Source of the DNA: an uncultured Candidatus Saccharibacteria bacterium
GTDB taxonomy: Bacteria > Patescibacteriota > Minisyncoccia > Phycocordibacterales > UBA2100
NCBI GenBank assembly: GCA_964471165.1
Contig: CAYYEX010000002.1
Coordinates: forward strand, 60,965-124,964
DNA length: 64,000 nucleotides
Direction of reading: 5' to 3'
Made by a program: the position numbers and the translations under genes. This document shows, one piece after another, positions 11,711-40,076 of the stretch. Below the pieces are notes generated by a model. The model ran no database searches and was not told the DNA's origin. It saw only the letters and a program-made list of their open reading frames with translations. How positions within the stretch are numbered: the stretch's first letter is position 1; the number at the start of each line of letters is the position of its first letter.

Positions 11711-13417
11711 ATGCTTCAGGACGTTGCACTCAAGATAATGAAGACAGGGGCAAATGTCTTTCTCACGGGGGAACCGGGCAGCGGTAAAACACATACGGTA
11801 AATGCATATGTGAAATGGCTCCGAGAACACGGCATTGAGCCGGCCATCACCGCATCAACTGGCATTGCCGCAACGCACGTGGGCGGCATGACGATTCACG
11901 CGTGGACCGGAATCGGCGTAAAGCGTGACCTCACTGAATATGATTTGGACGAGATTATGTCGCGCGAGCGTTTAGTAAAACGAGCAGCAGCCTCGCAGGT
12001 ACTTATCATCGACGAAATCTCGATGGTTGATGCGCGCACACTCTCAATGGCAGAGCGCGCGATTCGTGCGCTCAAACGCACCGATAAACCGTGGGGTGGC
12101 ATGCAGGTAGTACTCGTGGGCGATTTTTATCAACTACCCCCAGTCTCTACAAAAGAAAACGTCGTTGGTGAAGTAATTCAGTTCGACGCTACGGCTCCAA
12201 AGTCAAAACCGCAAACATCTTTTTCCTACACATCTGCGGCGTGGCACGCAGCAAATCCAATTGTTTGCTACTTGTCCGAGCAACATCGACAGGACGATGC
12301 CCCATTCCTTGATTTACTCAATGCAATACGAAAAGGCAGGGTAGGGGATGAACATCACGAACTCCTCAACTCGCGTGCCTCCGCGCTCGAAGATTTGCCA
12401 GAGAGCGCCGCGCGACTCTACTCGCACAACGCAAACGTGGACAGAGAAAACACACAGCGTCTCGCGTCGACCGATGGTGACGAGCGCAGTTATCACATGG
12501 TCTCAAAAGGCTCTGCCCATATTGTTGAAGCGCTCAAGCGCGGCTGTCTTTCGCCAGAAACGCTCGTGCTGAAAGTGGGAGCACGGGTCATGTTTACAAA
12601 AAACGCACTCGATGGCTCGTATGCAAATGGCACACTTGGTGAAGTTATTGAACTCAATGACGTCGGGCCGGTAGTTCGCACAAATAGCGGGCGCACCATC
12701 CTCGCGCAACCTGCTGAATGGTCTGTGACAGACGGTGGTAAAGTGCTGGCCCGTGTTGCGCAGGTACCGTTGCGCCTTGCGTGGGCTGTTACCGTGCACA
12801 AGAGCCAAGGCATGACGCTCGACAGCGCTGCGGTCGATTTGTCCGCCGCATTTGAATATGGCCAAGGCTACGTAGCCCTCTCCCGTGTACGCGAACTCTC
12901 CGGACTCTACTTACTTGGCTACAACGAACGCGCACTCCAGGTGCACCCTGAAGTCACCGCGCAAGACACGAACTTTAAATTGAACTCTGCCTCTGCGCGC
13001 AAGCGTTTTGAAGCAATGTCGTTAGCTGAACACGCTGAATATTCAGACGCATTTGTAACCGCACTTGGGGGCGACCCAAGAGGCGCCGTTGTGCCAACCG
13101 AGAGGGTTGAGCGCGTAGACACCTGCACCGCGACTTTTGAACTGGTTCAGAGAAAACTATCGCTCGAAGAGATTGCAATCGAACGAAAGTTAAAGTCCGG
13201 CACGATTGTGAGTCACCTTGAGCAGCTGCAACAACAAAAGAAACTGACCGCGGACATGCTCGGTGAGCTTATCCCTGCGAAGAAACTTAAGGAGCTCAAG
13301 CCGATTATTTCTGTTATGAAAAAGAAAAAGCTCACTGCGCTCACTCCGATTTTTCAAGCATTGAAAGGCGAACACTCGTTCGAAGACATCCGTCTTGCAC
13401 GACTCTTTGTTGATTAG
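11711..13417 (+). CDS. Pif1/RecD-family superfamily-1 DNA helicase with C-terminal helix-turn-helix extension
   Basis: Walker A FLTGEPGSGKTHTV; LIIDEISMVD; VLVGDFYQLPPV; SH3-like middle; C-terminal HTH-like tail; 568 aa. Confidence 0.75.
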   Translation: MLQDVALKIMKTGANVFLTGEPGSGKTHTVNAYVKWLREHGIEPAITASTGIAATHVGGMTIHAWTGIGVKRDLTEYDLDEIMSRERLVKRAAASQVLIIDEISMVDARTLSMAERAIRALKRTDKPWGGMQVVLVGDFYQLPPVSTKENVVGEVIQFDATAPKSKPQTSFSYTSAAWHAANPIVCYLSEQHRQDDAPFLDLLNAIRKGRVGDEHHELLNSRASALEDLPESAARLYSHNANVDRENTQRLASTDGDERSYHMVSKGSAHIVEALKRGCLSPETLVLKVGARVMFTKNALDGSYANGTLGEVIELNDVGPVVRTNSGRTILAQPAEWSVTDGGKVLARVAQVPLRLAWAVTVHKSQGMTLDSAAVDLSAAFEYGQGYVALSRVRELSGLYLLGYNERALQVHPEVTAQDTNFKLNSASARKRFEAMSLAEHAEYSDAFVTALGGDPRGAVVPTERVERVDTCTATFELVQRKLSLEEIAIERKLKSGTIVSHLEQLQQQKKLTADMLGELIPAKKLKELKPIISVMKKKKLTALTPIFQALKGEHSFEDIRLARLFVD

Positions 13418-14418
13418 ATATGGGCACTACGCGCTTTTCTCGATGAGAGATACGACAAACCAACAAATACAAACCCAACAAGGCCGGTGACCGTTTCCGG
13501 CACGTCCACAAAGATGCCTGCAATCATCGCGAGCGCGAGCCCGAAGATTGCCCAGTGCGCTCCATGTTCCAGATATACGAGTGTTGAGAGCGTTTTCGCA
13601 CGCACGAGTGCGATTGTGAAAGTTCGCACGAAGAGCGCACCAATACCTAAGCCAGCAATGATGACAGGCAGTGAGTTGGTAACCGCAAACGCACCCACAA
13701 CGCCATCAAGCGAGAACGCAGAGTCGAGCACGTTGAGATAGATGAAAAGCGCGACTCCACCACTTGCGACATGGCGCGTTGCGTCGCTGAACGAGTGCGT
13801 GACGCCTTCCATGATGACGAAAATAATTACACCGACGATGCCCGCAATAAGCAGTGTTGCCGCCTCCTCATGCGGCACGAACAACGCACAGACAAGCAGA
13901 ACTCCGAGCGTAAGGGCAAGCTCGATAGCTTCGATGCGCCCCCAACTCGAGAGTCTTTGTTCTACCGCCTCAATCCAATGCATGGTCTTTGCGCGATTAA
14001 AGAAGTATTTGAGCGAAACGAGCATAAGGAATGCGCTGCCGAACGCGGAGATAGCAACATGTGCGTCAATGATGTGAGCGCCGTATGCGGCAGGGTCTAA
14101 GAAGGCGAGTTTTGCGACCGCAAACGGCGAGAGCGATACCGCCACCGCCACAATGATAATCGGCAAAACAAATCGGGTCCCGAATACGGCAAATATGATG
14201 CCCCACGTAAGAAAGCGTTTCTGCCACAGAGGGCTCATTTGGGCGAGAATCTTTGCATTAATGACGGCGTTATCGAAGGAGAGGGTGGTTTCGAGCACTG
14301 CAAGCAGAATCACAAGAAATAATGCTTCATAACCGCCCCAGAAGAACGCTGCCACACATGCCGCAAGCGTGACGAATATCGGAATGACAAACAACCTCAT
14401 GAGGCCGAATCGTAGCAC
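13414..14418 (-). CDS. TerC/DUF475-like polytopic membrane protein
   Basis: nine or so hydrophobic helices; LSFDNAVINA motif reminiscent of the TerC family. Confidence 0.45.
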   Translation of the reverse strand: MLRFGLMRLFVIPIFVTLAACVAAFFWGGYEALFLVILLAVLETTLSFDNAVINAKILAQMSPLWQKRFLTWGIIFAVFGTRFVLPIIIVAVAVSLSPFAVAKLAFLDPAAYGAHIIDAHVAISAFGSAFLMLVSLKYFFNRAKTMHWIEAVEQRLSSWGRIEAIELALTLGVLLVCALFVPHEEAATLLIAGIVGVIIFVIMEGVTHSFSDATRHVASGGVALFIYLNVLDSAFSLDGVVGAFAVTNSLPVIIAGLGIGALFVRTFTIALVRAKTLSTLVYLEHGAHWAIFGLALAMIAGIFVDVPETVTGLVGFVFVGLSYLSSRKARSAHI

Positions 14419-14555: not shown

Positions 14556-16727
14556 ATGGAAAAGAAGATTTATTCTCTCGAAATCGGGGGTAAGACCTTA
14601 ACAGCAGAATTCAACGACTGGGCAGACCAAGCCTCCGGCTCGGTACTCATGAAGTACGGCTTGAGCACCGTGCTCGCAACGGTCGTTATGGGCAGCAAGG
14701 AGAGCAATCTCGACTATTTCCCACTCTCGGTAGAATACGAGGAAAAATTTTACGCCGCAGGCGCCATCTTGGGCTCCCGCTTTATGCGCCGTGAAGGTCG
14801 TCCGTCTGAAGAGGCGGTCCTCTCTGGCCGCATCGTAGACCGCACAATCCGTCCATTGTTTCCGAAGGGCCTCAAGCGTGACGTGCAGGTCATTGTTGCC
14901 GTGCTCTCAATCGAAGACTACGACACCGACGTCCTCGCGGTGAACGCAGCATCGCTCGCGCTCGCTACTTCAAATATTCCGTGGAATGGACCAGTCTCCG
15001 CTGTTCGCCTCGAACGAGCAGATGACGGTTCGTTTATCACCAACCCGACCTACAAAGAGCGCGAAGCGGAGGGTGCGCGCATGGACTTGCTCGCATGTGG
15101 TAAAGACGGACTCATAAACATGATTGAAGTCGGCGCATCCGAAGTCTCCGAAGAAGTTCTCGAAACCGCATTTCAGAAAGCGAGCGAGGAAATTGAAAAA
15201 ATCCAGGCATGGCAGAAATCAATCGTTGCTGAGCGTGGCGTTGCAAAGTTCGACTACAAAAAGTCCGAAGACCTCAGTGCCGCGGAATCTTTGTGGGGTA
15301 CATACATGGTGCCGAAAGTGCTCGCATACAAGGGCATTCTCGACAAAGAGGCTCTCGGTACACTCAAGGACGAGTGGACAAAGCATGCAGTTGAAACACT
15401 TCCCGACATTGCACCGGGTAAGTTTGGAGAAATCTATGAACACAAAATGGACGAATACGTGCACGAGCTTGCGATAAACGAAGGCAAGCGAGTCGACGGC
15501 CGCGCGATGGATGAAATCCGTCCACTCTTTGCAGAAGCTGCAACCCTCGCACCAGTCGTGCATGGCTCAGGCCTCTTCTACCGGGGCGCAACACACGTGC
15601 TCGCGGCGCTCACACTCGGTGGACCGGGAGACTCACAGCTCATCGATACTATCGAATACCAGGAGGCAAAGAAGAGCTTCATGCTCCACTACAACTTCCC
15701 ACCGTATTCCGTCGGTGAGACCGGTCGCATGGGTGGCACAAACCGCCGCATGATTGGTCACGGCGCACTCGCTGAGAAAGCATTGCGCGCAGTACTCCCG
15801 ACAAAAGAAGTATTCCCATACACGATTCGTATCGTTGCCGAGAGCCTTGCATCGAATGGCTCTACGTCGATGGCATCAACGTGTGCCGGCACTGTTGCAC
15901 TTATGGATGCGGGGGTTCCGATTACACGCCCCGTGGCAGGTATCGCTATGGGCATGATGTCTGATGCGGTCAAAGGCGAGTATCGTGTACTCACCGATAT
16001 TCAAGGACCCGAAGACCACCACGGTGACATGGACTTCAAAGTTGCCGGTACAACAGTTGGCGTAACCGCAGTACAGATGGACGTGAAGGTTGAGGGAGTT
16101 CCGCTCAAGGTACTTTCTCAAGCATTCGCACAGGCAAAGAAGGCCCGCATGCAGATTCTCGACGTTATTACTGCCGCAATTCCAACACCGCGCGCAGATA
16201 TTTCTCCTCGTGCCCCAAAGATTCTGACCACGCACGTTAAGGTCGACCAAATCGGTCTCGTCATCGGGCCGGGCGGCAAGACAATCAACGGTATCAAAGA
16301 CCGAACGAAGTGCGACGACATTACTATCGAAGAGGATGGAACAATCTTCATTACTGGTCGTGATGGTTCTGCAGAACTCGCGATGAAAGAAATCAACGAT
16401 CTCACTCGCGAGTTCATGGTAGGTGACAAGTTTGAAGGACCGGTTGTCCGTCTCATGGACTTCGGCGCATTCGTGAAGATTTCGCCAAACCAAGATGGAC
16501 TCGTCCACGTCTCCGAAGTTGCACCATTCCGCATCGGAAATATTTCCGAAGCACTACAGGTCGGCGACGTTGTTCCCGTGGTACTGAAGGAAATCGACGA
16601 GAAAGGACGCTATAATCTCTCAATCAAAGCCGCCGATTCGGAATGGGCCGCACGCAAGGGCCTCAAGCCGTCGGAAGGTGATGGAGGAAATCATGGCCGA
16701 AGAGAAAACAGGGAACGACGCATCTAG
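14556..16727 (+). CDS. pnp: polyribonucleotide nucleotidyltransferase (PNPase)
   Basis: 723 aa; two RNase PH domains, KH (LVIGPGGKTINGIKD) and S1 C-terminus; follows rpsO. Confidence 0.9.
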   Translation: MEKKIYSLEIGGKTLTAEFNDWADQASGSVLMKYGLSTVLATVVMGSKESNLDYFPLSVEYEEKFYAAGAILGSRFMRREGRPSEEAVLSGRIVDRTIRPLFPKGLKRDVQVIVAVLSIEDYDTDVLAVNAASLALATSNIPWNGPVSAVRLERADDGSFITNPTYKEREAEGARMDLLACGKDGLINMIEVGASEVSEEVLETAFQKASEEIEKIQAWQKSIVAERGVAKFDYKKSEDLSAAESLWGTYMVPKVLAYKGILDKEALGTLKDEWTKHAVETLPDIAPGKFGEIYEHKMDEYVHELAINEGKRVDGRAMDEIRPLFAEAATLAPVVHGSGLFYRGATHVLAALTLGGPGDSQLIDTIEYQEAKKSFMLHYNFPPYSVGETGRMGGTNRRMIGHGALAEKALRAVLPTKEVFPYTIRIVAESLASNGSTSMASTCAGTVALMDAGVPITRPVAGIAMGMMSDAVKGEYRVLTDIQGPEDHHGDMDFKVAGTTVGVTAVQMDVKVEGVPLKVLSQAFAQAKKARMQILDVITAAIPTPRADISPRAPKILTTHVKVDQIGLVIGPGGKTINGIKDRTKCDDITIEEDGTIFITGRDGSAELAMKEINDLTREFMVGDKFEGPVVRLMDFGAFVKISPNQDGLVHVSEVAPFRIGNISEALQVGDVVPVVLKEIDEKGRYNLSIKAADSEWAARKGLKPSEGDGGNHGRRENRERRI

Positions 16728-18387
16728 TCAAAAGCCGAACAAGGTGAGTCAAACAGGCGTGCCGGGGAAACCCGGCACGCCTGTTCCGTCTCCGGCACAC
16801 CCGCCGGTGTCACATCTCATGCCACACGATGGCGCCGTCTCCGCCGAGCCTGTTATTCATGAATCAGTTATCGCCCCGACTGCAATACCTGTTCCAGATA
16901 TTATGGTGCCTCAAAAAAAGGCCGAGCGAGCATCAATCCCCGAGGTGCAAAAAAAAGCTCCTGCAAAACCAGCGCCCCCCGTACTCCCTCCCATGCCCTC
17001 ACCGAGCAAGCCGCCTGTCTCTCATCTCATGCCGCACGCCGAAATTGTGCCGACACAACCGTTGATTACCCCACCCAAGCCGCCGGTTACCAGCGTCATG
17101 CCCCCAACTCCATCGACAACGATTGAACTCACCACTCCTCCACCCCCCGTGTTTACAGGAGTGGCAATGCAGGAACCCGAGCCGCCGGCTCCGGTTGTAA
17201 TGCCAACGGGCAGAAGCGCTCCGGTACAGGATGCACTTGAGGCAGAAGTTGGCCTCACGAAACCCGCGCCAAAAACCCGTCCGCCGGAGCCGCAGCACTC
17301 CGATATGGATAAAATTCTCAAGGGTATTAAACTGCCGGAGAAACGCGCATACGCCCCGGCAGGCGAATACAGAGCACCCGCGCCAACGATTGAACCGGAT
17401 GCACAAAAGCTCGACGAAATTCTTGCTGCGCAAATTACCGAAAACACTCCCGCCTCAGTTCCCGCAACTGCGCCAGTACAAAATACGGTGCCGGATCAAA
17501 AGGTATTTCACGAGGACCTCCACGTCGCTTCAGTTCATACCCTCAAGCAAGACTTGCAGCATGTTGTTCAAGAACAAAGGATGTCGGTCGTAAAGGCGGT
17601 CGCACTCGAGCAGGAAAAAAGGTCGCGTTTCGACCATACCGAGGAAATTCCGCGTCCGCCAAGTAAGGCCCCGGCAGTGTTGTTCACTATTGCTGTTTTT
17701 ATACTTCTTGGTCTCGGCGCTCTTGGTGGCGTGTATTACATTGCAACAATCCAATCTGCTCCGGGGCCAGTGAGTGAGAACACATCGCTCGTATTCGCGG
17801 AACAAACTGTCGCATTTGCGCTCACCCAAGATTCTCCTCAATCGCTGCGCTCCCAGCTCGCAACCAATCGCAACACCAGCGGTACACTTGGCTCGTTGTT
17901 GCACATTGTGCCCGTGGTACCACATTTCGATGAAAGCGGGAAAGAGGGTGGACGTCCTGCAACACTCGCAGAGTTTTTTAAAGCCATCGGGACAGAGCCG
18001 CCGGAAAATCTCATGCGCGCACTCGGTGACGACTTTTTCCTCGGCATTCACACCGTCGACAAAAACGCGCCAATTCTCGTTATTAAAGTCACATCATACG
18101 ACCGCGCTTTCGACGGCATGCTCTCGTGGGAGAAATCTATGAATGCCGATTTAACACCACTTTTTGCTGTGGTGCCGCGTCTCATTATGGGAACCGATGG
18201 TTTACAAACTGAGCGCCCATTCACCGACCTTGTTATGCGCAACTACGATGTGCGCGCACTCAAAGACGACGACGGTGTCATACAGCTGTACTACTCGTTC
18301 CCAACTCGAGATCTGCTCATTATTGCTGAGAGTCCATACACCTTCACTGAAATCCTGAGCCGTTTGCAGGCCGGACGCCGACTCTAG
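16693..18387 (+). CDS. hypothetical proline-rich membrane-anchored protein with a duplicated KPPVSHLMPH motif
   Basis: long Pro/Ala-rich N-terminal half; one TM helix (VLFTIAVFILLGLGALGGVYYI); overlaps the 3' end of pnp; start uncertain (16678/16681/16693). Confidence 0.5.
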   Translation: MAEEKTGNDASSQKPNKVSQTGVPGKPGTPVPSPAHPPVSHLMPHDGAVSAEPVIHESVIAPTAIPVPDIMVPQKKAERASIPEVQKKAPAKPAPPVLPPMPSPSKPPVSHLMPHAEIVPTQPLITPPKPPVTSVMPPTPSTTIELTTPPPPVFTGVAMQEPEPPAPVVMPTGRSAPVQDALEAEVGLTKPAPKTRPPEPQHSDMDKILKGIKLPEKRAYAPAGEYRAPAPTIEPDAQKLDEILAAQITENTPASVPATAPVQNTVPDQKVFHEDLHVASVHTLKQDLQHVVQEQRMSVVKAVALEQEKRSRFDHTEEIPRPPSKAPAVLFTIAVFILLGLGALGGVYYIATIQSAPGPVSENTSLVFAEQTVAFALTQDSPQSLRSQLATNRNTSGTLGSLLHIVPVVPHFDESGKEGGRPATLAEFFKAIGTEPPENLMRALGDDFFLGIHTVDKNAPILVIKVTSYDRAFDGMLSWEKSMNADLTPLFAVVPRLIMGTDGLQTERPFTDLVMRNYDVRALKDDDGVIQLYYSFPTRDLLIIAESPYTFTEILSRLQAGRRL

Positions 18388-18916: not shown

Positions 18917-20464
18917 GTGACACGGAGTGACGTCGAGTCCGGGTTTGCACGCGTATTCGGCGCACAGCCGGCGCTCCCTCGTGCGCATCTCGTTTCCGTT
19001 GAGTGCGATATCATTCGCGGTCTCCATGCGTTTACAGTTGTTGGACTGCCCGATAAAGCAGTCGAGGAAGCAAAGGATCGCATCGCCGCGGCGATTAAAA
19101 ATTCCCCCGGTGAATTCGAATCCCCGAAACGGAGCAACAAGAAAATTGTATTTTCACTCGCTCCTGCTGAATTAAAAAAAGAGGGGGCCGTCTTTGATTT
19201 ACCGCTCGCACTTTCATACCTGCTCGCATCTGGGCAGCTTGCGTTTGACCCCACGGGAAAACTATTCGCGGGCGAGCTCGCGCTCGATGGGACGATGCGC
19301 CCTGTACGCGGGGCACTCTCGATTGCGCTGTGCGCACGTGACGAGGGTTTCACCGAACTGTTTATTCCCGAAGAAAATTGTGCTGAGGCATCGCTGGTAT
19401 CCGGCATTACTATCTTTCCGGTTAAAACTTTTTACGATGCCGTTGCGCATGTCTCGGAGCACGCACACACAATTACTCCGTATGTCGCTTCCCGCACGCA
19501 ACGTGTACACGAAGAAAGCGGTGTTTCACTGAGTGACATTCGCGGACAAGAGAGCGCAAAACGCGGACTCGAAATCGCAGCAGCGGGTCGTCACAACATT
19601 GCACTCTATGGTCCGCCGGGCACGGGTAAAACAATGCTCGCACGCACAGCCGTTGCACTCCTTCCGGATCTCTCAGAGAGTGAAATGATTGAAGTTACCG
19701 CCATTCATTCGTTTGCGGGAGCAACAAAAGGTGCTGTTACACGCCCACCATTCCGCTCACCCCATCACACCTCGTCGTATGCATCTCTCATTGGCGGTGG
19801 TGCCATCCCCCGTCCCGGAGAAGTTACCCTCGCTCACCGCGGTCTTTTGTTCCTCGATGAATTTCCAGAGTTTCACCGCGATGTTGTGAATGCGTTGCGT
19901 GAACCGTTGGAAGACGCACAGGTGAGTGTTGCACGAGCTCGCGGCAGCTCCACGTTTCCCGCCAACTTTATGCTGGTTGCCGCACTCAACCCCTGTCCAT
20001 GTGGAAGATATGGCAGCCGCGATTGCACATGCATGCCACACGCAATTGAAAAGTATCGTAGAAAGATTTCTGGACCAGTCGCAGACCGCATCGACATGTG
20101 GGTCCAGGTAGGCGACATGCCGCCCGAAAATTTGGCAATCAAAAAGAAACAGGCAGACGACCAAACAGCAAAAGCACGCGAGCGAATCTTGTACGCACGG
20201 AAATGCCAACACGAGCGATTTAAAAACTCAAAAGGAGTAAGTACCAACTCCGACATGCGCCCAAAGGAAATCGAGTCCCTCGCTGGTCTCTCTTTGAAAG
20301 CAGAAGAAACGCTCATGCAGGCTGCACGCACCATGAAGCTCTCCGCGCGCGGTTACCACCGCACCATCAAACTCGCTCGAACTATTGCAGATCTCTCGGG
20401 ATCGGAAACCATCGAACCTGCTCATATGTTGGAAGCCCTCCAATACCGACAGCGCGACCTTTAA
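18917..20464 (+). CDS. comM: YifB/ComM-family Mg-chelatase-like AAA+ ATPase
   Basis: N-terminal Lon-like fold region (FARVFGAQPALPRAHLVSVECDI); Walker A ALYGPPGTGKTMLA; RGYHRTIKLARTIADL C-terminus; start placed at in-frame GTG 18917 because the longer ORF from 18704 overlaps the dksA-like gene. Confidence 0.75.
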   Translation: MTRSDVESGFARVFGAQPALPRAHLVSVECDIIRGLHAFTVVGLPDKAVEEAKDRIAAAIKNSPGEFESPKRSNKKIVFSLAPAELKKEGAVFDLPLALSYLLASGQLAFDPTGKLFAGELALDGTMRPVRGALSIALCARDEGFTELFIPEENCAEASLVSGITIFPVKTFYDAVAHVSEHAHTITPYVASRTQRVHEESGVSLSDIRGQESAKRGLEIAAAGRHNIALYGPPGTGKTMLARTAVALLPDLSESEMIEVTAIHSFAGATKGAVTRPPFRSPHHTSSYASLIGGGAIPRPGEVTLAHRGLLFLDEFPEFHRDVVNALREPLEDAQVSVARARGSSTFPANFMLVAALNPCPCGRYGSRDCTCMPHAIEKYRRKISGPVADRIDMWVQVGDMPPENLAIKKKQADDQTAKARERILYARKCQHERFKNSKGVSTNSDMRPKEIESLAGLSLKAEETLMQAARTMKLSARGYHRTIKLARTIADLSGSETIEPAHMLEALQYRQRDL

Positions 20465-20485
20465 GGTCGCGCTGAAGTCTTTAAT

Positions 20486-21373
20486 TTATTTCAGTGTGTT
20501 AATAGGAATTTTTAGGTATCGGATTCCATTGTTTTCAGGCTCGGGCAACATGCCGGCACGCATATTTACCTGAAGCGACGGAATGATGAGTTTTGGCATA
20601 CCAAGTCTCTTGTCGCGCTCATTGCGAGCGCGCACAAAGTCTGCGCGGTCAACACCCATGCGCGCATGAACGTTGAGGCGTTTCTGTTCGCCGACGGTTG
20701 TCTCCCATGTGTATTCGGTGCGACCTTCTGGGAGGTAGTCGTGACACATAAACATTCTCGTTTCATCAGGAAGGAGAAACAACTTTTGTACGGACTCGTA
20801 AAGCGCATCCGCACTTCCGCCAGGGAAGTCGCAACGCGCCGAACCGAAGTCCGGCATAAAGAGTGTGTCGCCTACAAAAACGGCGTCACCGATTATGTAA
20901 CTCACATCGGCAGGCGTATGCCCGGGTGTATGGATGACGTGCACCGGTAGAGTGCCAATCGTAAACGTGTCGCCGTCTTTCCAAAGCCTGTCGAACTGAC
21001 TCCCATCGCGCGCAAATTCGGTCCCGGCGTTAAATATTTTTCCGAACGTGTTTTGTACGACGAGTATGTTCTCTCCGATTCCTGTCTCACCGCCCACTAT
21101 TTCTTGCAGATATGGTGCGGCAGAAAGATGATCCGCGTGTATATGTGTTTCTAAAATCCATTCGATGACTAGTTTATGCTCACGCACGTAAGCTGCAATG
21201 GCGTCTGCGCTTTTGTACGAGATAACGCCCGCCGCCGCATCGTAATCCAATACACTGTCTATAATTGCTGCGCGTCTTGTACTCGGGTCCGTCACCACGT
21301 GTGTAACCGTGTTTGTGTCCACATCAAAGAATGATGCAACGTCGGGATGTGCTACTGAAGCTTGTGTTTCCAT
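20486..21373 (-). CDS. MBL-fold metallo-hydrolase (persulfide-dioxygenase/glyoxalase-II-like)
   Basis: HIHADH zinc-binding motif; 295 aa; co-oriented with rhodanese and CsoR-like genes. Confidence 0.7.
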   Translation of the reverse strand: METQASVAHPDVASFFDVDTNTVTHVVTDPSTRRAAIIDSVLDYDAAAGVISYKSADAIAAYVREHKLVIEWILETHIHADHLSAAPYLQEIVGGETGIGENILVVQNTFGKIFNAGTEFARDGSQFDRLWKDGDTFTIGTLPVHVIHTPGHTPADVSYIIGDAVFVGDTLFMPDFGSARCDFPGGSADALYESVQKLFLLPDETRMFMCHDYLPEGRTEYTWETTVGEQKRLNVHARMGVDRADFVRARNERDKRLGMPKLIIPSLQVNMRAGMLPEPENNGIRYLKIPINTLK

Positions 21374-21383
21374 ATCGGATTAA

Positions 21384-21704
21384 TTATGCAACGGGCAATC
21401 CGTGTGCGCGCCATGCAGAGGTTCCTCCGGTAACGTTGACTGCCGAAATGCCGGCTTTGATGAGCGCTGATGTTGCGGTCGCACTACGACCTCCTGACTG
21501 ACAGATCACATAGACCTCAGAATAGCCTTTGAGTTTGTCGATATAGTGAGCAATTTGCGGCAGCGGATAGTTTACCGCCCCACGCGCGTGACCCGAGGAA
21601 TATTCGTCGGGGTTACGAACATCGATAAGTATCGTGCTTTCCCCCTGCATTTTCTGTTCTACTTCTGTAACTGCCACTGAAGGTACTGAGGTGAAGAATC
21701 CCAT
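21384..21704 (-). CDS. single-domain rhodanese-like sulfurtransferase
   Basis: 106 aa; active-site loop CQSGGRS. Confidence 0.8.
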   Translation of the reverse strand: MGFFTSVPSVAVTEVEQKMQGESTILIDVRNPDEYSSGHARGAVNYPLPQIAHYIDKLKGYSEVYVICQSGGRSATATSALIKAGISAVNVTGGTSAWRAHGLPVA

Positions 21705-21731
21705 AGATAGGTGTGTTTATACGTATAACGG

Positions 21732-21986
21732 TTACGCTTTGATAAGTGAGTGAACGTCCGCTAGAAGTGCTTTGTCTTTCACGGGCGCATCTCCATAAAT
21801 CTTCGAACTGAGAAATTCACTGATGCATGTCGCCCGGACACTATCGAGTGAACGACTTGCCGCAAGAAGCGTGCGCGCAGCTTTTCCGCAGTCTTCTGCC
21901 TCGAGTGCCACGCGAACTGCGGCAAGTTGCCCTTCGACACGTGCTACATGTGCCATTAATGCGGATACGTGTTTTCTTTGCATTTG
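21732..21986 (-). CDS. CsoR/RcnR-family metal/persulfide-sensing repressor (CstR-like)
   Basis: VARVEGQLAAVRVALEAEDCGKAARTLLAASRSLDSVRATCISEFL fits the CsoR four-helix fold with two Cys and no His in the x-Y-z site; start set at MQRKH because the palindrome ATACCCCCCGGGGTAT lies inside the longer ORF. Confidence 0.65.
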   Translation of the reverse strand, partial: QMQRKHVSALMAHVARVEGQLAAVRVALEAEDCGKAARTLLAASRSLDSVRATCISEFLSSKIYGDAPVKDKALLADVHSLIKA

Positions 21987-21989
21987 CCA

Positions 21990-22007
21990 TGTATACCATA
22001 TACCCCC
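21990..22007. promoter_or_regulatory. candidate CsoR/CstR operator ATACCCC-cc-GGGGTAT
   Basis: perfect 7-bp GC-rich inverted repeat immediately upstream of the repressor gene; resembles known CsoR-family operators. Confidence 0.5.
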
Positions 22008-22121
22008 CGGGGTATGCAAATCGAGTGTGCTCAACCGTTACAGCCACTGCAATGCACGGAGCGAGATTTGTGCGGCTTTGTCTTCTTTGTGTCTTCATAA
22101 GTTGAGGAGTACAGTGCCTTC

Positions 22122-27499: not shown

Positions 27500-27622
27500 G
27501 TGGGTGACTTTTTTATTGGCTCGGTCACAGATATTTTTATTGCCGTCGCAATAAAAATTCTCTGACCACGCCTCGCGGTCCCGCAAGCTTGCGGGACATC
27601 GCTCCGGCCGAGTAGTCTAAAG

Positions 27623-27649
27623 AAAAAGGATGCGCAGGCATCCTTTTTC
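27623..27649. terminator. bidirectional intrinsic terminator AAAAAGGATGC-gcag-GCATCCTTTTT
   Basis: perfect hairpin flanked by A-run and T-run between convergent genes. Confidence 0.75.
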
Positions 27650-27989
27650 ATTGACTACTCCCCATCATCGTAATGGAGATTCCAGCGTAGACGATAATCG
27701 GTACGATAGAGACGAGGCAGTAGTATGGAGCACCATACAGGCCCAGTAGGTATTGTCCGGTATGCGCCGGTGGACCGAATGGATACGTTACGGTTGACGG
27801 CGTCCAGATGTAAATACCACCCACCGGCGGGCCGACCGTGGTCCAAATCGCCTGGTTGTAGCAGAAAATAATCTGCGTAATAGGGCCGCCGAACGGATTC
27901 GTTTGCGCAACGGCAGCGGTCGGTGCCAAAAGAAGGAGTACACCCGCGAGCATTCCTGCGATTGTGCGCATACGTACAGTATACGACAT
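27648..27989 (-). CDS. small exported protein, VirB2/TrbC-pilin-like candidate
   Basis: signal peptide MSYTVRMRTIAGMLAGVLLLLAPTAAVAQ then about 85 aa with two hydrophobic segments and two Cys; start uncertain (27989 or 27971). Confidence 0.4.
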   Translation of the reverse strand: MSYTVRMRTIAGMLAGVLLLLAPTAAVAQTNPFGGPITQIIFCYNQAIWTTVGPPVGGIYIWTPSTVTYPFGPPAHTGQYLLGLYGAPYYCLVSIVPIIVYAGISITMMGSSQ

Positions 27990-28020
27990 TGATGGACACG
28001 GGTGCGTTATACTTTGAATA

Positions 28021-28890
28021 ATGAAGCACCCGGTGTTCCTGACGCTTTCCGTCGCGGTCATCTTTGTACTCGTTGGCTTGTATTTTATTGAACGTCAGCG
28101 TGCCGTCACCCCGAATGGAGCAAGTGCATCGTGGGAAACTGTCGGGGGATACATCGAGCCCACCGACTCGATTTCTGAGCAACCAACACAAGCACAACCG
28201 CTAGTTGAGACCGATAATAACCCGGAGACTCTCGTGATTCCTGTCGCAACAACATCGGCGACAAAGAAGCCCGCAAACGCGCCTGCAAAAGATGATGGTG
28301 TGTTTGACTACAACGCAATGCTCGCACAACTGCAGCATGAAACTACGTCGAACGCTTCTGCACAGGCAGATAAAACATTTGAAAAATTGATGGGTGCCTT
28401 TTCGTTCGCCCCTGCTATCGCAGCCCCGGCACAAAAAGTGAAGACGCCCGAGCAACAGGCTCTCTATATATACGGCAACGAAATCGGCTCGCGAATTAAG
28501 GGTTTCGCCGCCGTGAACCCAAATATGGCTCAAACACTCACTAATCAGATTAACCACCGCACCGAACCCTCCGCTGGAGTCCCCGTACGTAACCTTGGCA
28601 CCCGCTATATTGCGCTCGGAGAGAGTATTCTTGCAATCCAAAATGTTCCGCCCTCGGTCGAATCTGCCCACCATACGCTCGGAGAATCCTATCTTCATCT
28701 TGGTGAGGCGCTCAGCCGCATACCTGATGCAACCGAAGACCAGGCATTTATTGCTGCTATTACCACATACAACAACAAGGCCGACTCATACACGCGAGCG
28801 TTCGTCGGCATGGTTACACTGTTTTCAGCACTCAATGTCACATTCGAAGAAACTGACCCTGGTTCCGTTTTTAGCTTCCGTCATAACTGA
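28021..28890 (+). CDS. hypothetical membrane-anchored protein (paralog of the next gene)
   Basis: N-terminal TM; C-terminal motif ...ITTYNNKADSYTRAF... matched by ...LLRTYNEKEQGIYDSF... in 28926-29783. Confidence 0.5.
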   Translation: MKHPVFLTLSVAVIFVLVGLYFIERQRAVTPNGASASWETVGGYIEPTDSISEQPTQAQPLVETDNNPETLVIPVATTSATKKPANAPAKDDGVFDYNAMLAQLQHETTSNASAQADKTFEKLMGAFSFAPAIAAPAQKVKTPEQQALYIYGNEIGSRIKGFAAVNPNMAQTLTNQINHRTEPSAGVPVRNLGTRYIALGESILAIQNVPPSVESAHHTLGESYLHLGEALSRIPDATEDQAFIAAITTYNNKADSYTRAFVGMVTLFSALNVTFEETDPGSVFSFRHN

Positions 28891-28925
28891 CAGATATCCC
28901 ATTTTTTCCCGAGATTGAGCCACGA

Positions 28926-29783
28926 TTGCACAAATCGCCGAGGTATACTTTTAGTGTGCAGAAATTACGCGCGATACTCGGCGGCTCTTCTCCTATTGCG
29001 ATGACCGCTCTCGTTTCCGTTCTCGTGCTTGGCGGTGTTACGACGGCGCGCGTTGTAGCAACCATACGCCCCCCAGTTTCACCCCCTGTTGTTGCGGCCG
29101 CAGTGGTAGATACCACGAATGCCGATGAGAGTGCAGATTGGCAGCAGCAAATGCTGCTCCTTGGCCAGACGACCGAGACCGACGCGAGTGCAGCGACATC
29201 GACCGACCATCTCGCGCTCATCGGACCGATGGTAATGGGCGAGATTTTTGGCACCTATGACTCAATCCGTGCAAGTGGTAACTACACACAAACAGATTTG
29301 CGCGCAGCAGCAGAAAAAATTGGCTCGTATATGAAAGCAGCAGTGGCCTACGAAGCGTTCGAGATTACAGACTTTGCAACAGATGCTGATGCCTCAAGTG
29401 AGCGTGTGCGCACATACCGCGCAGAATTGCAATCGGCGCTCGAGCCACTCGCCTCTATTCCTGGAGCTGAATATGAAATCTATGGACGCTATGTGGAAAC
29501 AAGCGATTCTAAATACCTTGAGCAACTGAGAGATGCTGCAAACAAGTACCGCTCAAGTGCGGCGAGTGCCTCCTTGCTCACCGTCCCCCGCGATGCGGTC
29601 AATTATCACAGAGACTTGCTAAACTCGCTGCGCGCATTCGCCTCCGTTCTCGACGGTCTCGCCGGTCACGCCGACGACCCGTATGCATCAATTGCACTGC
29701 TGCGCACATACAACGAAAAAGAGCAGGGTATTTACGACTCGTTCAACCGCATGCGTTCCTACTACGCGAAAAAAGAGCTATGA
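28926..29783 (+). CDS. hypothetical membrane-anchored protein (paralog of the previous gene)
   Basis: N-terminal TM; shared C-terminal motif with 28021-28890. Confidence 0.5.
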   Translation: MHKSPRYTFSVQKLRAILGGSSPIAMTALVSVLVLGGVTTARVVATIRPPVSPPVVAAAVVDTTNADESADWQQQMLLLGQTTETDASAATSTDHLALIGPMVMGEIFGTYDSIRASGNYTQTDLRAAAEKIGSYMKAAVAYEAFEITDFATDADASSERVRTYRAELQSALEPLASIPGAEYEIYGRYVETSDSKYLEQLRDAANKYRSSAASASLLTVPRDAVNYHRDLLNSLRAFASVLDGLAGHADDPYASIALLRTYNEKEQGIYDSFNRMRSYYAKKEL

Positions 29784-31342
29784 AAAAGAAATTTCTCATA
29801 GCAATCACTATTCTGTGCACCGGGCTCTCACCGATAGTAGCTTTTTCAGCGGCTGACGACGTTTTTACGTGCAGCAAAAATGGACAGGCGACGGGAAGTG
29901 CTGGCTCTCAAGTTCCACTTGGTGGTCCGTACGTCCCCGTTGCCGACTATGCAGTAGAGCTCAACACCGGGTTACTGGTTTACAAAGAATGCGTACTGCG
30001 TGTGCTAGCGACCACTAAACGAAAAGCAGCTCTCGCAAGTGTCGACAACCAAACACTGACCCGATTCAACGCATATCCATCACGCGAGCTTGGAAAGGAA
30101 GAGGTGCAATTGAGCGATAAGACCGTCCTGCGGTATCTCAAAAATGACAGCCTTTCGAACTTTAGTCCTACCGTGCAAGGGAAAGTAAAACAAGCAATTG
30201 CTCGTGGCTACAGTGCCTCGCGCGATCCTCGGACGGCATTTATTTGTGAATACACGGGTGACCTCAACGCTGTGTATAGTGGTGTTCCGATTGGAAATTA
30301 CTGGGACGGATTTAATGCAGTCGCCGATGACCCTGCATGCAGCGTCCTCTCCGCATCAGACTTAGGCTACGGCGCGGTCATTGGGCAGGGTCAATACGAA
30401 GTCTATAAAAACATGCAGCGTTACAACGCCGGGCAAGGTGTATACGACGTCTGGCACGAAGATGAGAACGGTTTCCATATTACAGATACACCTGGGCAAG
30501 TTGTACTTCAACAGGGGATTCAGTCGGTGCAGTCCTCGTATAAACAGGCACAAGAAGCCGACGACATTGGAGAGATGGTCGACGGACTCTACCTTGGTGT
30601 TACCAACCAGGTACTCACACCAGGAACTTCCGGAACATCGGGTGGCCTTTCCGCTATTACACAGGCACTCGGTGGAGCACTCTCATACATGGCACAGGTT
30701 GCGCAAGGTGCGGGCACAGCCTACACAGAAGCAAATGCAAACGTCACGGTCGGTATTCTGCAGGGTGCGCTTGCACTTGAGCAGCAGTACAACGCGGTTA
30801 TGTCTTCGACCGCATCTATGTTCACACAAACAAATGCGTCGCTTCGTACAAAAGAAGCACAATGCTTCACGTCGATTGCTGGGGCAATCTGTCAGTCGGG
30901 AACTATTTCTGGCTCTACATGCACGGGAGTATCAGGCGGCACGCTTACCATCGCCACCTCCACTGCATTCTCGCAAAAGGTAATCGATGCGAACGTGCGC
31001 ACTCTCGCCACTGCAACGGTTACAAACCTCAACGCCTCGAATCAAATCATTACCCGTCTAAACGCAATGATTACGGCGCTGCGCGCGAACCCTACAGAAG
31101 CAGCACAAACTGCGGCGCTCGCGCAACTAGCTGCGCTCAACCCACATAATGCACAACAAAAGAACGATGCACAGACGAACCAGCAAGCACTCACGCAAAG
31201 TATGACCACGCTTCTCTCAACGACATTCGATGGTTGGGCTGCAGCCGAGCCTGTTGGGTGGTGCAACATCGAAGTTCAATCGAACAAAGATGCCTGGACC
31301 TCGTGCTGGAGCGGAAACGCTGCCGCATGTCCAACGCCTTAA
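29780..31342 (+). CDS. large secreted Cys-containing hypothetical protein
   Basis: signal peptide MKKKFLIAITILCTGLSPIVAFSA; 520 aa; about 14 Cys; Gln/Thr/Ala-rich C-terminal half. Confidence 0.5.
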   Translation: MKKKFLIAITILCTGLSPIVAFSAADDVFTCSKNGQATGSAGSQVPLGGPYVPVADYAVELNTGLLVYKECVLRVLATTKRKAALASVDNQTLTRFNAYPSRELGKEEVQLSDKTVLRYLKNDSLSNFSPTVQGKVKQAIARGYSASRDPRTAFICEYTGDLNAVYSGVPIGNYWDGFNAVADDPACSVLSASDLGYGAVIGQGQYEVYKNMQRYNAGQGVYDVWHEDENGFHITDTPGQVVLQQGIQSVQSSYKQAQEADDIGEMVDGLYLGVTNQVLTPGTSGTSGGLSAITQALGGALSYMAQVAQGAGTAYTEANANVTVGILQGALALEQQYNAVMSSTASMFTQTNASLRTKEAQCFTSIAGAICQSGTISGSTCTGVSGGTLTIATSTAFSQKVIDANVRTLATATVTNLNASNQIITRLNAMITALRANPTEAAQTAALAQLAALNPHNAQQKNDAQTNQQALTQSMTTLLSTTFDGWAAAEPVGWCNIEVQSNKDAWTSCWSGNAAACPTP

Positions 31343-31346
31343 CAAT

Positions 31347-33929: not shown

Positions 33930-33941
33930 CACAATCACTCT

Positions 33942-34532: not shown

Positions 34533-34658
34533 AGCACTCGAACATCGGATTGCCAAGAAAATCGACGAGCTCTTAGAGAATCCCGCCACAATTCTATAAA
34601 CATATTGGAGTCGTTTGACACGTCGGTCTGTATATCTCACGGGGTATACTGATACTGC

Positions 34659-35165: not shown

Positions 35166-35169
35166 TTAT

Positions 35170-35829: not shown

Positions 35830-35832
35830 TCT

Positions 35833-38837: not shown

Positions 38838-38839
38838 TC

Positions 38840-40069: not shown

Positions 40070-40076
40070 TGTATCT

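What the first reader, a model, noticed from the sequence alone, without database searches (positions are those of the whole stretch)
20486..22034. CstR-like persulfide-sensing repressor + rhodanese + MBL-fold dioxygenase-like operon with palindromic operator
- Three co-oriented genes are present. The first is a CsoR-family repressor that has two Cys (…EDCGK… and …RATCISE…) but lacks the His of the Cu(I) site, which is the CstR-like rather than CsoR-like state.
- The second is a single-domain rhodanese with a CQSGGRS loop.
- The third is an HIHADH MBL-fold enzyme resembling the persulfide-dioxygenase/ETHE1-like fold.
- The CsoR-family-style operator ATACCCC-cc-GGGGTAT sits immediately upstream.
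- This is the composition of the staphylococcal cst sulfide-stress system, which fits a host-associated lifestyle exposed to H2S.
Basis: partly seen in the sequence, partly recalled or inferred. Interest (0 to 1): 0.55.

Follow-up and report, generated by a model that had tools for sequence, protein, structure and literature searches.

The report
Sulfide-stress operon with unusual repressor
A tiny uncultured (CPR) bacterium carries a self-regulated three-gene unit (repressor, sulfur-transfer enzyme, persulfide dioxygenase) that most likely detoxifies reactive sulfur. The enzymes are of known kinds, but the repressor lacks one of the two cysteines that define the known persulfide sensors of its family.

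Summary
**Observation.** It is real. Three tightly spaced minus-strand genes are present:
- a CsoR-family repressor, 21732-21983;
- a 106-aa rhodanese, 21384-21704;
- a 295-aa MBL protein, 20486-21373.

A unique ATACCCC-NN-GGGGTAT palindrome lies at 22000-22015.

**Enzymes.** The MBL protein is a type II persulfide dioxygenase:
- E 6e-113 to P. aeruginosa PDO;
- Fe triad and all three GSH-binding Arg kept;
- fails the glyoxalase II cut-off.

**Operator.** It fills the spacer of a conserved extended -10 promoter, and the repressor ATG follows 6 nt later. This 20-nt block is 90% identical across 11 loci whose flanks are 26% identical.

**Synteny.** Repressor then rhodanese (then PDO) recurs in 10 close CPR loci. 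It also recurs in 65/66 (rhodanese) and 46/46 (PDO) wider metagenomic loci.

- Only Cys32 is the canonical CsoR/CstR cysteine.
- The canonical resolving Cys position is Lys61.
- The second Cys (C53) lies 8 residues earlier and is specific to this clade.
- Most wider relatives have a single Cys.
- SQR, CstA and TauE are absent, so this is not the staphylococcal cst set.

**Prior work.** PDO-rhodanese pairs in CPR were published in 2024. I did not find the regulator, operator or promoter described in the papers I read.

**Verdict.** A new variant of a known kind, of moderate interest.

The parts
22014..22019 (-). Candidate -35 hexamer TTGCAT. Its last two bases are the first two of the operator.
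   Evidence: Identical in all 10 close loci (TTACAT in L019), while the 30 nt further upstream are only 26% identical. It matches TTGACA at only 3 of 6 positions and the consensus scan did not call it. The promoter role is inferred from conservation and spacing.
22000..22015 (.). Operator ATACCCC-NN-GGGGTAT (7-bp inverted arms, 2-bp spacer)
   Evidence: Unique in the window. Conserved with a variable central dinucleotide in 10 close loci and in L019. Resembles the S. mitis cst operator core ATATACCCTTATGGGGTATAT (PMC8643695).
21990..21995 (-). Candidate -10 hexamer TATACA, preceded by TGg (extended -10), 18 nt after the -35
   Evidence: TGn-TAnnnT at the same spacing in 9 of 11 loci by script, plus L003 and the window by eye. 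Near-consensus TATACT/TATAAT in wider relatives. The window's hexamer lacks the final T.
21732..21983 (-). CsoR-family repressor, 83 aa. Cys32 is the canonical sensing Cys, Cys53 is clade-specific, Phe57 sits at the His position and Lys61 at the canonical second-Cys position. The ATG lies 6 nt after the -10, so the mRNA is probably leaderless.
   Evidence: PF02583 27.5 bits. AF2 model pLDDT 85.8 with three helices. Foldseek top hits are SpCstR, then FrmR, CsoR and InrS. Alignments. Most homologues start at this ATG.
21384..21704 (-). Single-domain rhodanese sulfurtransferase, 106 aa, with catalytic Cys68 in a six-residue loop CQSGGR
   Evidence: PF00581 64.3 bits. PDB hits include the rhodanese domains of MBL-rhodanese fusions 3tp9 and 5ve3. 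Follows the repressor in 10/10 close loci and 65/66 wider loci.
20486..21373 (-). Type II persulfide dioxygenase, 295 aa. Fe ligands His77, His152, Asp169. GSH-binding Arg180, Arg250, Arg253.
   Evidence: NCBIfam Blh dioxygenase domain E 2.4e-117. GloB 78.8 bits against a cut-off of 200.8. PaPDO 9G8T E 5.6e-113, ungapped over residues 9-292; PpPDO 4YSK E 2.8e-102. Residue mapping.
20450..20474 (.). GC-rich hairpin CAGCGCGACC-TTTAA-GGTCGCGCTG between the convergent PDO and comM genes. It is the likely end of the operon.
   Evidence: RNA fold dG -22.6 kcal/mol. There is no clear U-tract and the consensus scan did not list it, so the terminator function is inferred.

Best explanation
This is a self-contained, autoregulated reactive-sulfur (persulfide/polysulfide) detoxification operon in a CPR/Patescibacteria genome, probably Paceibacterota.

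**Repressed state (inferred).** The CsoR-fold repressor sits as a tetramer on ATACCCC-NN-GGGGTAT. This site occupies the spacer between the -35 and the extended -10 of the operon's own promoter, so it blocks RNA polymerase.

**Induction (inferred by analogy with CstR).** The invariant Cys32 thiolate at the start of helix 2 attacks sulfane sulfur. The resulting persulfide weakens DNA binding. It may do so on its own or after cross-linking to the clade-specific Cys53 of the partner subunit. The three genes are then transcribed, the first from a probably leaderless mRNA.

**Enzyme step (enzyme identities shown, chemistry inferred from the families).**
- The rhodanese moves sulfane sulfur between carriers: from persulfide or thiosulfate to a thiol, and from persulfide plus sulfite to thiosulfate.
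- The Fe(II) type II PDO oxidises a glutathione-type persulfide with O2 to sulfite plus thiol.
For: **Enzyme identities**
- PDO: NCBIfam Blh dioxygenase domain E 2e-117, and below the glyoxalase II cut-off.
- PDO: full-length, ungapped match to biochemically characterised PaPDO, E 6e-113, and to PpPDO.
- PDO: Fe triad and the three GSH-binding Arg are kept.
- Rhodanese: PF00581 with a CQSGGR loop.

**Regulator**
- PF02583 above its cut-off.
- Confident three-helix model. Its top four PDB matches are S. pneumoniae CstR, followed only by other CsoR-family proteins among the best 14.
- Cys32 is invariant in every relative examined and aligns with the attacking Cys30 of SpCstR.
- The Cu ligand His is absent.

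**Regulatory DNA**
- The 20 nt covering the -35 hexamer and operator are 90% identical across 11 loci. The adjacent 30 nt are 26% identical.
- The hexamer-to-ATG distance is fixed at 28-31 nt.
- TGn-TAnnnT lies at 16-18 nt from the hexamer.

**Functional linkage**
- Repressor then rhodanese in 10/10 close loci with unrelated flanks; PDO is third in 8 of them.
- In 80 wider metagenomic loci, rhodanese follows in 65/66 and PDO in 46/46 where enough DNA is held.
- CstR paradigm: the N-terminal Cys is the nucleophile and the only invariant Cys in cluster 10 (PMC8643695).
Against: - Nothing here is experimental.
- The canonical resolving Cys is missing (Lys61). Cys53 lies 8 residues, about two helical turns, away from it. 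My geometric estimate puts Cys32-Cys53' at roughly 9-14 A, which is uncertain for a cross-link.
- 56 of 80 wider relatives that head the same operon have only one Cys. The CstR dithiol mechanism therefore cannot be assumed.
- Sequence similarity to any solved CsoR-family protein is weak (E 0.06 or worse).
- The -35 matches the consensus at only 3 of 6 positions, the window's -10 lacks the final T, and the promoter scan found nothing.
- No SQR (persulfide source) and no sulfite exporter were seen in about 40 kb of scanned flanks.
- The PDO needs O2 and apparently glutathione. CPR bacteria are generally described as anaerobic fermenters, and no GSH synthesis gene is visible in the window.
Confidence: 0.72

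Rival explanations
1. Energy or thiosulfate-oxidation pathway. The rhodanese and PDO serve dissimilatory oxidation of thiosulfate or sulfur that supports growth of the CPR cell, as proposed when these gene pairs were first reported in CPR. The repressor would merely tune expression.
For: Valentin-Alvarado et al. 2024 (PMC10811913) found adjacent PDO and rhodanese genes in Doudna-, Kaiser-, Pace-, Moran- and Gracilibacteria from sulfide-rich sites and suggested energy generation from thiosulfate oxidation. The operon is conserved and widespread.
Against: - A dioxygenase reaction inserts O2 directly and, from established enzymology, is not coupled to an electron-transport chain.
- No SQR, Sox, sulfite dehydrogenase or quinone-linked gene accompanies the operon in any locus examined.
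- Control by a thiol-switch-type repressor placed on its own promoter is the layout of inducible detoxification systems.
Confidence: 0.08
2. General thiol-oxidant or electrophile sensor. The repressor responds to disulfide stress, peroxide, quinones or aldehydes through Cys32 rather than specifically to sulfane sulfur. The rhodanese and PDO would be part of a broader redox-repair response.
For: - The canonical CstR dithiol pair is absent and most wider relatives have a single Cys.
- CstRs also react with simple oxidants such as tetrathionate in vitro.
- One related locus replaces the PDO with a thioredoxin-fold membrane protein, and two have a neighbouring GST.
Against: The partner that is almost never missing is a rhodanese. 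The third gene is a PDO in 8/10 close loci and 46/46 wider loci. Both enzymes act specifically on sulfane sulfur. No peroxidase, catalase or aldehyde dehydrogenase is linked.
Confidence: 0.12
3. Sulfur assimilation from thiosulfate, as proposed for the Burkholderia PDO-rhodanese fusion BpPRF. The rhodanese would make GSSH from thiosulfate, and the PDO would turn it into sulfite for assimilation.
For: The window rhodanese and PDO both hit the BpPRF structures 5ve3 and 5ve4. That function is cited for BpPRF in PMC10811913 (reference 79).
Against: No sulfite reductase or cysteine synthase gene is linked in any locus. A repressor of the CstR type implies induction by excess sulfane sulfur rather than by sulfur limitation.
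Confidence: 0.05
4. Metal (Cu, Ni or Co) or formaldehyde sensor of the CsoR/RcnR/FrmR type that happens to sit next to sulfur genes.
For: The family assignment is PF02583. JGI names some members 'FrmR family'. One related locus has a multicopper oxidase gene upstream.
Against: - The Y position is Phe and Z is Lys, so no C-H-C, H-C-H-H or H-C-H-C site exists.
- The N-terminus is MQRKH, without the Pro2 of FrmR or the His3 of RcnR.
- No copA, copZ, rcnA or frmA neighbour occurs in any locus.
Confidence: 0.02

Closest known systems
CstR persulfide sensors (S. aureus cluster 4; E. faecalis, S. pneumoniae and S. mitis cluster 10; actinomycete cluster 3) of the CsoR superfamily
   Same: - Same three-helix fold.
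- Invariant N-terminal Cys at the start of helix 2.
- No Cu-binding His.
- Operator of the type ATACCC...GGGGTAT.
- Autoregulated operon that encodes rhodanese-type sulfurtransferases.
   Different: - The canonical resolving Cys (Z) is Lys. A different, clade-invariant Cys sits 8 residues earlier.
- Sequence identity is only 24-26%.
- The operator spacer is one bp shorter than the S. mitis core.
- The regulated enzymes are a free rhodanese plus a type II PDO, not CstA/CstB/SQR or RhdA/RhdB/CoA-persulfide reductase.
Type II persulfide dioxygenases of Proteobacteria (P. aeruginosa PaPDO 9G8T, P. putida PpPDO 4YSK/4YSL)
   Same: - Full-length alignment, ungapped to PaPDO.
- Fe triad, three GSH-binding arginines and the type II C-terminal region are all present.
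   Different: - Encoded in a CPR genome.
- Placed under a CsoR-family repressor. To my knowledge, proteobacterial pdo genes are under FisR or BigR/SqrR-type regulators.
BigR-Blh operon of Xylella/Agrobacterium, and the PDO-rhodanese fusions (Blh, BpPRF 5VE3, CstB)
   Same: - Rhodanese and PDO act together under a thiol-based repressor.
- The window PDO matches the dioxygenase part of the NCBIfam Blh model at E 2e-117.
   Different: - Here the rhodanese and PDO are separate genes.
- The rhodanese does not match the Blh N-terminal domain model.
- The repressor is of the CsoR family, not the ArsR family.
Adjacent PDO and rhodanese genes reported in CPR bacteria (Valentin-Alvarado et al., Microbiome 2024)
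   Same: Same gene pair in the same group of organisms (Kaiser-, Pace-, Doudna-, Moran- and Gracilibacteria).
   Different: That paper does not contain the words CsoR, FrmR, repressor or 'transcriptional regulator', and it reads the pair as energy metabolism. The upstream regulator, operator and promoter are the addition made here.

Membership tests
CsoR/RcnR superfamily (PF02583) | Match to the family profile above the curated cut-off | tested here: met
   27.5 bits against a cut-off of 22.8, covering profile positions 4-75 of 78. The match is weak; some homologues have no precomputed Pfam hit.
CsoR/RcnR superfamily (PF02583) | Three-helix protomer fold | tested here: met
   AF2 model pLDDT 85.8 with helices 3-28, 32-62 and 71-82. 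The best 14 Foldseek PDB hits are all CsoR-family proteins, probability 0.84-1.00. The tetramer was not modelled.
CsoR/RcnR superfamily (PF02583) | Conserved Cys ('X') at the N-terminus of helix 2 | tested here: met
   Cys32 is invariant in alignments A1 and A2 and in the 82-row alignment. It aligns with SpCstR Cys30.
CstR (SSN clusters 3, 4, 10 of Fakhoury et al. 2021) | x-C-x-C W-X-Y-Z motif: non-His at Y and Cys at Z | tested here: not met
   Y is Phe57, which is non-His and so acceptable. Z is Lys61, not Cys. Cys53 aligns with SpCstR Ile51. The motif definition is from PMC8643695.
CstR (SSN clusters 3, 4, 10 of Fakhoury et al. 2021) | Genomic neighbourhood encoding sulfide or sulfane-sulfur detoxification enzymes | tested here: met
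   Rhodanese and PDO lie immediately downstream, conserved in 10 close loci and about 65 wider loci.
CstR (SSN clusters 3, 4, 10 of Fakhoury et al. 2021) | cst-type operator in the promoter region | tested here: met
   ATACCCC-NN-GGGGTAT compared with the S. mitis core ATATACCCTTATGGGGTATAT. The arms are similar and the spacer is one bp shorter.
CstR (SSN clusters 3, 4, 10 of Fakhoury et al. 2021) | DNA binding relieved by persulfides or polysulfides through Cys modification | not testable with these tools
   Needs purified protein, anisotropy or EMSA, and mass spectrometry.
Cu(I)-sensing CsoR | C-H-C (or C-H-H) ligand set and a copA/copZ neighbourhood | tested here: not met
   Phe57 and Lys61 occupy the His and Cys positions. 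No copper-export gene occurs in any locus.
FrmR / RcnR | N-terminal Pro2 (FrmR) or His3 (RcnR) together with His at position Y | tested here: not met
   The N-terminus is MQRKH and Y is Phe57.
Persulfide dioxygenase, type II | 2-His-1-carboxylate Fe site | tested here: met
   His77, His152 and Asp169 correspond to PaPDO His71, His146 and Asp163 in an ungapped alignment.
Persulfide dioxygenase, type II | Three GSH-binding arginines and full-length similarity including the type II C-terminal region | tested here: met
   Arg180, Arg250 and Arg253 correspond to Arg174, Arg244 and Arg247 if those numbers are PaPDO's. The alignment runs over residues 9-292 of 295, E 5.6e-113.
Persulfide dioxygenase, type II | O2-dependent oxidation of GSSH to sulfite | not testable with these tools
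   Needs an enzyme assay.
Glyoxalase II (GloB) | Score above the curated equivalog cut-off | tested here: not met
   TIGR03413 78.8 bits against 200.8. NF007597 49.7 bits against 421.
Rhodanese sulfurtransferase (single domain) | Rhodanese domain with the catalytic Cys at the start of a six-residue active-site loop | tested here: met
   PF00581 64.3 bits. C68-QSGGR-S contains the only Cys in the protein.
Staphylococcal cst operon (tauE-cstR-cstA-cstB-sqr) | Presence of SQR, multidomain CstA, a PDO-rhodanese fusion CstB and a TauE exporter | tested here: not met
   Only a free rhodanese and an unfused type II PDO are present. None of the other genes appears in the operon or among the scanned flanking ORFs.

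The most novel reading that the evidence does not exclude
This CPR clade, and the larger uncharacterised lineage it belongs to (HxxRxEGQL...DC...SRS[LF]), may be a fourth type of persulfide sensor in the CsoR superfamily.
- It would work without the canonical intersubunit Cys pair.
- Sensing would rest on Cys32 alone in most members, with a second Cys recruited independently at different helix positions: 53, 56, the N-terminus, or 61.
- The lineage also uses two operator polarities.
- If so, it would show that ultra-small, supposedly anaerobic and glutathione-less CPR bacteria run an inducible, O2- and glutathione-dependent sulfane-sulfur detoxification. The thiol might come from their hosts.
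Probability: 0.3. Interest if true: 0.6.

Novelty: new variant of a known kind. Interest (0 to 1): 0.42.

Why it matters
- **Reading of the gene pair.** It changes how the PDO-rhodanese pair recently reported in CPR bacteria is read. A thiol-switch-type repressor sitting on its own promoter points to inducible detoxification of reactive sulfur rather than to energy metabolism.
- **Sensor mechanism.** It supplies a natural series of CsoR-fold sensors in which the second cysteine is absent or sits at several different positions. That series is useful for testing what the resolving cysteine of CstR actually contributes.
- **CPR gene expression.** The sharply conserved promoter-operator, with a probably leaderless start, is a rare readable regulatory element in CPR genomes, where almost nothing is known about gene control.
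- **Physiology.** A PDO that keeps its glutathione-binding residues raises a testable question about O2 exposure and thiol supply in these episymbionts.

Tried and rejected
- **TTG start at 22034 (ORF list).** Rejected, because it would place the operator and promoter inside the coding region. Homologues and the conserved spacing support ATG 21983. The public 74-aa call (start 21956) is probably too short.
- **Second regulon member in the window.** The only other near-match lies at 34632-34647, has 2 mismatches and a degenerate left arm, and precedes a PrgI-family gene. I judged it chance.
- **Recent horizontal transfer by composition.** The GC content of the operon (0.49-0.52) equals that of its surroundings, so there is no signal.
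- **Consensus promoter and terminator scan.** It found no promoter and did not list the 20450-20474 hairpin. The promoter claim therefore rests on cross-locus conservation.
- **Direct sequence link to solved CsoR-family proteins.** It is too weak to use alone (best E 0.06), so the fold comparison was used instead.
- **Metagenome scans with the broad alignments A3 and A4.** The narrower A5 worked.
- **GST or DsbD-like partners.** Those seen in L013 and L017 have no counterpart in the window by tblastn.
- **Metal-sensor and FrmR readings.** Rejected on ligand positions.
Full report
**1. What is in the sequence**

Positions 20486-22034 hold three co-oriented genes on the minus strand.
- A small CsoR-like protein. 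The ORF list gives 21732-22034 from a TTG.
- A 106-aa rhodanese, 21384-21704.
- A 295-aa metallo-beta-lactamase-fold protein, 20486-21373.

The genes are separated by 27 and 10 nt. A strong hairpin at 20450-20474 (dG -22.6 kcal/mol) lies between the last gene and the convergent comM-like gene.

The palindrome ATACCCC-CC-GGGGTAT lies at 22000-22015.
- It is the only exact match in the 64-kb window. With up to 2 mismatches allowed, 0.04 matches are expected by chance.
- A looser pattern also hits only here.

**2. The enzymes**

The MBL protein is a persulfide dioxygenase of the proteobacterial type II class.
- It matches the dioxygenase portion of NCBIfam's bifunctional Blh model at E 2.4e-117.
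- It falls far below the glyoxalase II cut-offs: 78.8 bits against 200.8.
- It aligns without gaps over residues 9-292 to P. aeruginosa PDO (9G8T, E 5.6e-113).
- It aligns nearly full-length to P. putida PDO (4YSK/4YSL, E 2.8e-102).

PaPDO is a characterised GSSH dioxygenase with Fe ligands His71, His146 and Asp163. The GSH-contacting residues are Arg174, Arg244 and Arg247 (PMC12856154). With the ungapped offset of 6, these correspond to His77, His152, Asp169, Arg180, Arg250 and Arg253 of the window protein. All are present.

The rhodanese is a single domain (PF00581, 64.3 bits). Its only Cys heads a six-residue loop. Its PDB relatives include the rhodanese modules of MBL-rhodanese fusions (3tp9, 5ve3).

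**3. The regulator**

- Pfam assigns it to PF02583 only weakly: 27.5 bits against a cut-off of 22.8.
- Sequence hits to solved family members are insignificant.
- An AlphaFold2 model built on 33 homologues is confident (pLDDT 85.8) and has three helices.
- Its four best PDB matches are the S. pneumoniae CstR structures. FrmR, CsoR and InrS follow.

The fold and superfamily are therefore secure.

Alignment with SpCstR and a C-H-C-type family member gives the following correspondences.

| Window residue | SpCstR position | Meaning |
|---|---|---|
| Cys32 | Cys30 | universal 'X' Cys, the attacking Cys |
| Phe57 | residue 55 | 'Y' position, His in CsoR |
| Lys61 | Cys59 | 'Z' position, the resolving Cys |
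| Cys53 | Ile51 | eight residues before Z |

The three known persulfide-sensing clusters are all defined by x-C-x-C (PMC8643695). This protein is x-C-x-x plus an extra Cys.

**4. Family and distribution**

A word-indexed search of 5.8 billion proteins found only 34 relatives at 60-100% identity. Both Cys and His12 are invariant among them.

In species-representative genomes the relatives come from CPR MAGs only: Paceibacterota, Saccharibacteria, Pacebacteria and Kaiserbacteria. The window is therefore most likely a Paceibacterota-type CPR genome. A 298-kb ENA contig carries the identical locus.

An exhaustive profile search of 1.84 billion representatives added only about 30 more distant proteins. 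In these the second Cys sits elsewhere:
- at position 56;
- near the N-terminus;
- at the canonical Z position.

One Pacebacteria homologue has only the X Cys.

A metagenome scan seeded with the position-56 group returned 80 loci. Of these 80 loci, 56 have Cys32 only and 23 have Cys32 plus Cys56. In an 82-row alignment of those 80 repressors plus the window protein and an SpCstR fragment:
- position 53 is Phe in all 80 relatives;
- His12 is present in the window protein and all 80 relatives (SpCstR has Ala there in the C9A variant used).

**5. Conserved linkage**

*Close family.* The repressor is followed by a rhodanese in all 10 distinct loci with downstream DNA: the window, L002, L003, L004, L010, L013, L014, L015, L017 and L018.
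- A PDO is the third gene in 8 of them.
- L013 instead has a CcdA/DsbD-like thioredoxin-fold protein.
- L017 has nothing in third position.
- Both L013 and L017 have a divergent GST gene.
- Flanking genes differ between loci, so the unit is a self-contained module.

*Wider set.* A rhodanese follows in 65 of 66 loci with at least 400 nt downstream. The script scored 64; L100's rhodanese was missed because of an over-extended ORF. It is usually a 173-aa form with a C-terminal membrane tail. A PDO follows in 46 of 46 loci with at least 1.7 kb downstream.

This is strong guilt-by-association evidence that the regulator's signal is sulfane sulfur.

**6. Promoter and operator**

When the upstream regions are anchored on the palindrome, TTGCAT + ACCCC-NN-GGGGTAT is 90% identical across 11 loci. 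The preceding 30 nt are at random-level 26%.

The layout is as follows.

| Element | Position or spacing |
|---|---|
| TTGCAT, candidate -35 | 22014-22019 |
| TGn-TAnnnT, extended -10 | begins 16-18 nt after TTGCAT; TATACA at 21990-21995 in the window |
| Repressor ATG | 21983, 4-8 nt after the -10 |

- The operator therefore fills the promoter spacer. A bound tetramer would occlude RNA polymerase, and the first gene is probably translated from a leaderless mRNA.
- This also argues for the 83-aa start rather than the TTG at 22034 or the 74-aa public call.
- The wider single-Cys relatives keep the same layout with near-consensus -10 boxes. They use an operator of opposite polarity, CATAGGGTAnCCCTATG.

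Caveats:
- TTGCAT matches the sigma-70 -35 consensus at only 3 of 6 positions.
- The window's -10 lacks the terminal T.
- The generic scan called no promoter.

The promoter assignment is an inference from phylogenetic footprinting.

**7. Mechanism**

*Shown.*
- The enzyme classes and their catalytic residues.
- The regulator fold and the invariant Cys32.
- The conserved operator-promoter.
- The conserved operon.

*Inferred from the CstR paradigm* (PMC8643695). There the N-terminal Cys is the nucleophile and the only invariant Cys in cluster 10.
- Cys32 reacts with persulfide or polysulfide.
- DNA affinity drops and the operon is expressed.
- The rhodanese shuttles sulfane sulfur.
- The PDO oxidises a glutathione-type persulfide with O2 to sulfite.
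- The rhodanese can convert sulfite and persulfide to thiosulfate.

*Uncertain.* Cys53 may act as a resolving thiol. It lies on the same helix face as Y and Z but one turn on the other side of Y. My rough estimate of 9-14 A to Cys32' is not a computed value. Most relatives manage without any second Cys.

**8. Rivals**

- Energy-yielding thiosulfate oxidation is the published reading of the CPR gene pair (PMC10811913). It is disfavoured by the chemistry of a dioxygenase and by the lack of any electron-transport partner.
- A general oxidant or electrophile sensor cannot be excluded.
- Assimilation, as proposed for BpPRF, lacks linked assimilatory genes.
- Metal and formaldehyde sensing are contradicted by the ligand positions.

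**9. Comparison and novelty**

- PDO plus rhodanese in CPR is already published (2024). That paper does not mention a regulator.
- Persulfide-sensing CsoR-family repressors are well known.
- What I did not find described in the papers I read: a CPR-borne (and wider) CsoR-fold lineage outside the x-C-x-C definition that heads a rhodanese and type II PDO operon, together with a sharply conserved operator-in-promoter and a probably leaderless start.

I rate it a new variant of a known kind, of moderate interest.

The rest of the scanned window is housekeeping plus a type IV secretion-like cluster. It contains no further sulfur genes.

Noticed in passing
window 21981-22019 (minus strand); also L001-L003, L010, L013-L019: The repressor ATG lies only 4-8 nt after a conserved extended -10 box, so there is no room for a 5' UTR or Shine-Dalgarno sequence. 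The mRNA is probably leaderless. The rhodanese and PDO starts also lack obvious SD motifs.
   Followed up: partly
window 21956 versus 21983 versus 22034: The public gene call for this repressor (P0001, 74 aa) starts 9 codons downstream of the start supported by most homologues and by the promoter spacing. The mechanical TTG ORF start at 22034 would swallow the operator.
   Followed up: yes
L029-L102 (metagenome loci), e.g. L053, L059, L089: Wider single-Cys relatives heading the same repressor-rhodanese-PDO operon use an operator of opposite polarity (CATAGGGTAnCCCTATG) in the same promoter position. They mostly carry His at the canonical second-Cys position. Their rhodanese has a C-terminal membrane tail (YgaP-like, by my recollection of that family).
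   Followed up: partly
L013 4289-7401; L017 4309-4938: In two related CPR loci a glutathione S-transferase gene lies divergently next to the repressor. In L013 the PDO is replaced by a 587-aa CcdA/DsbD-like membrane protein fused to a thioredoxin fold. This hints at glutathione use in these CPR bacteria.
   Followed up: partly
window 20450-20474: A perfect 10-bp GC-rich hairpin sits between the convergent PDO and comM-like genes. The comM stop codon (20462-20464) lies in its loop.
   Followed up: partly
window 34632-34647: An operator-like site with 2 mismatches (ATATCTCACGGGGTAT) lies 11 nt before a PrgI-family gene. Only the right arm is intact, so it is probably chance.
   Followed up: yes
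window 27600-40100: A run of ORFs without Pfam matches surrounds a PrgI-family gene (34659-35165) and a TraG/VirB4-like P-loop ATPase (35833-37839). It looks like a type IV secretion or pilus-like cluster.
   Followed up: no
window 42768-44126: A dnaA gene is present, so the window may lie near the chromosomal replication origin. In L017 a dnaA gene sits directly after the repressor-rhodanese pair.
   Followed up: no
window 13414-14418; L015 6846-7841: A TerC/DUF475 membrane-protein gene lies 6 kb from the operon in the window and immediately after the operon in L015. This could be remnant synteny or a functional link.
   Followed up: no
L010 3406-4635: A multicopper oxidase gene lies 366 nt upstream of the repressor in one Paceibacteria-like locus, on the same strand. 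It is not conserved in other loci.
   Followed up: no
window 16678-18387: A 569-aa ORF has no Pfam match.
   Followed up: no
window 7698-8606: A tyrosine recombinase gene (phage-integrase family) is present.
   Followed up: no
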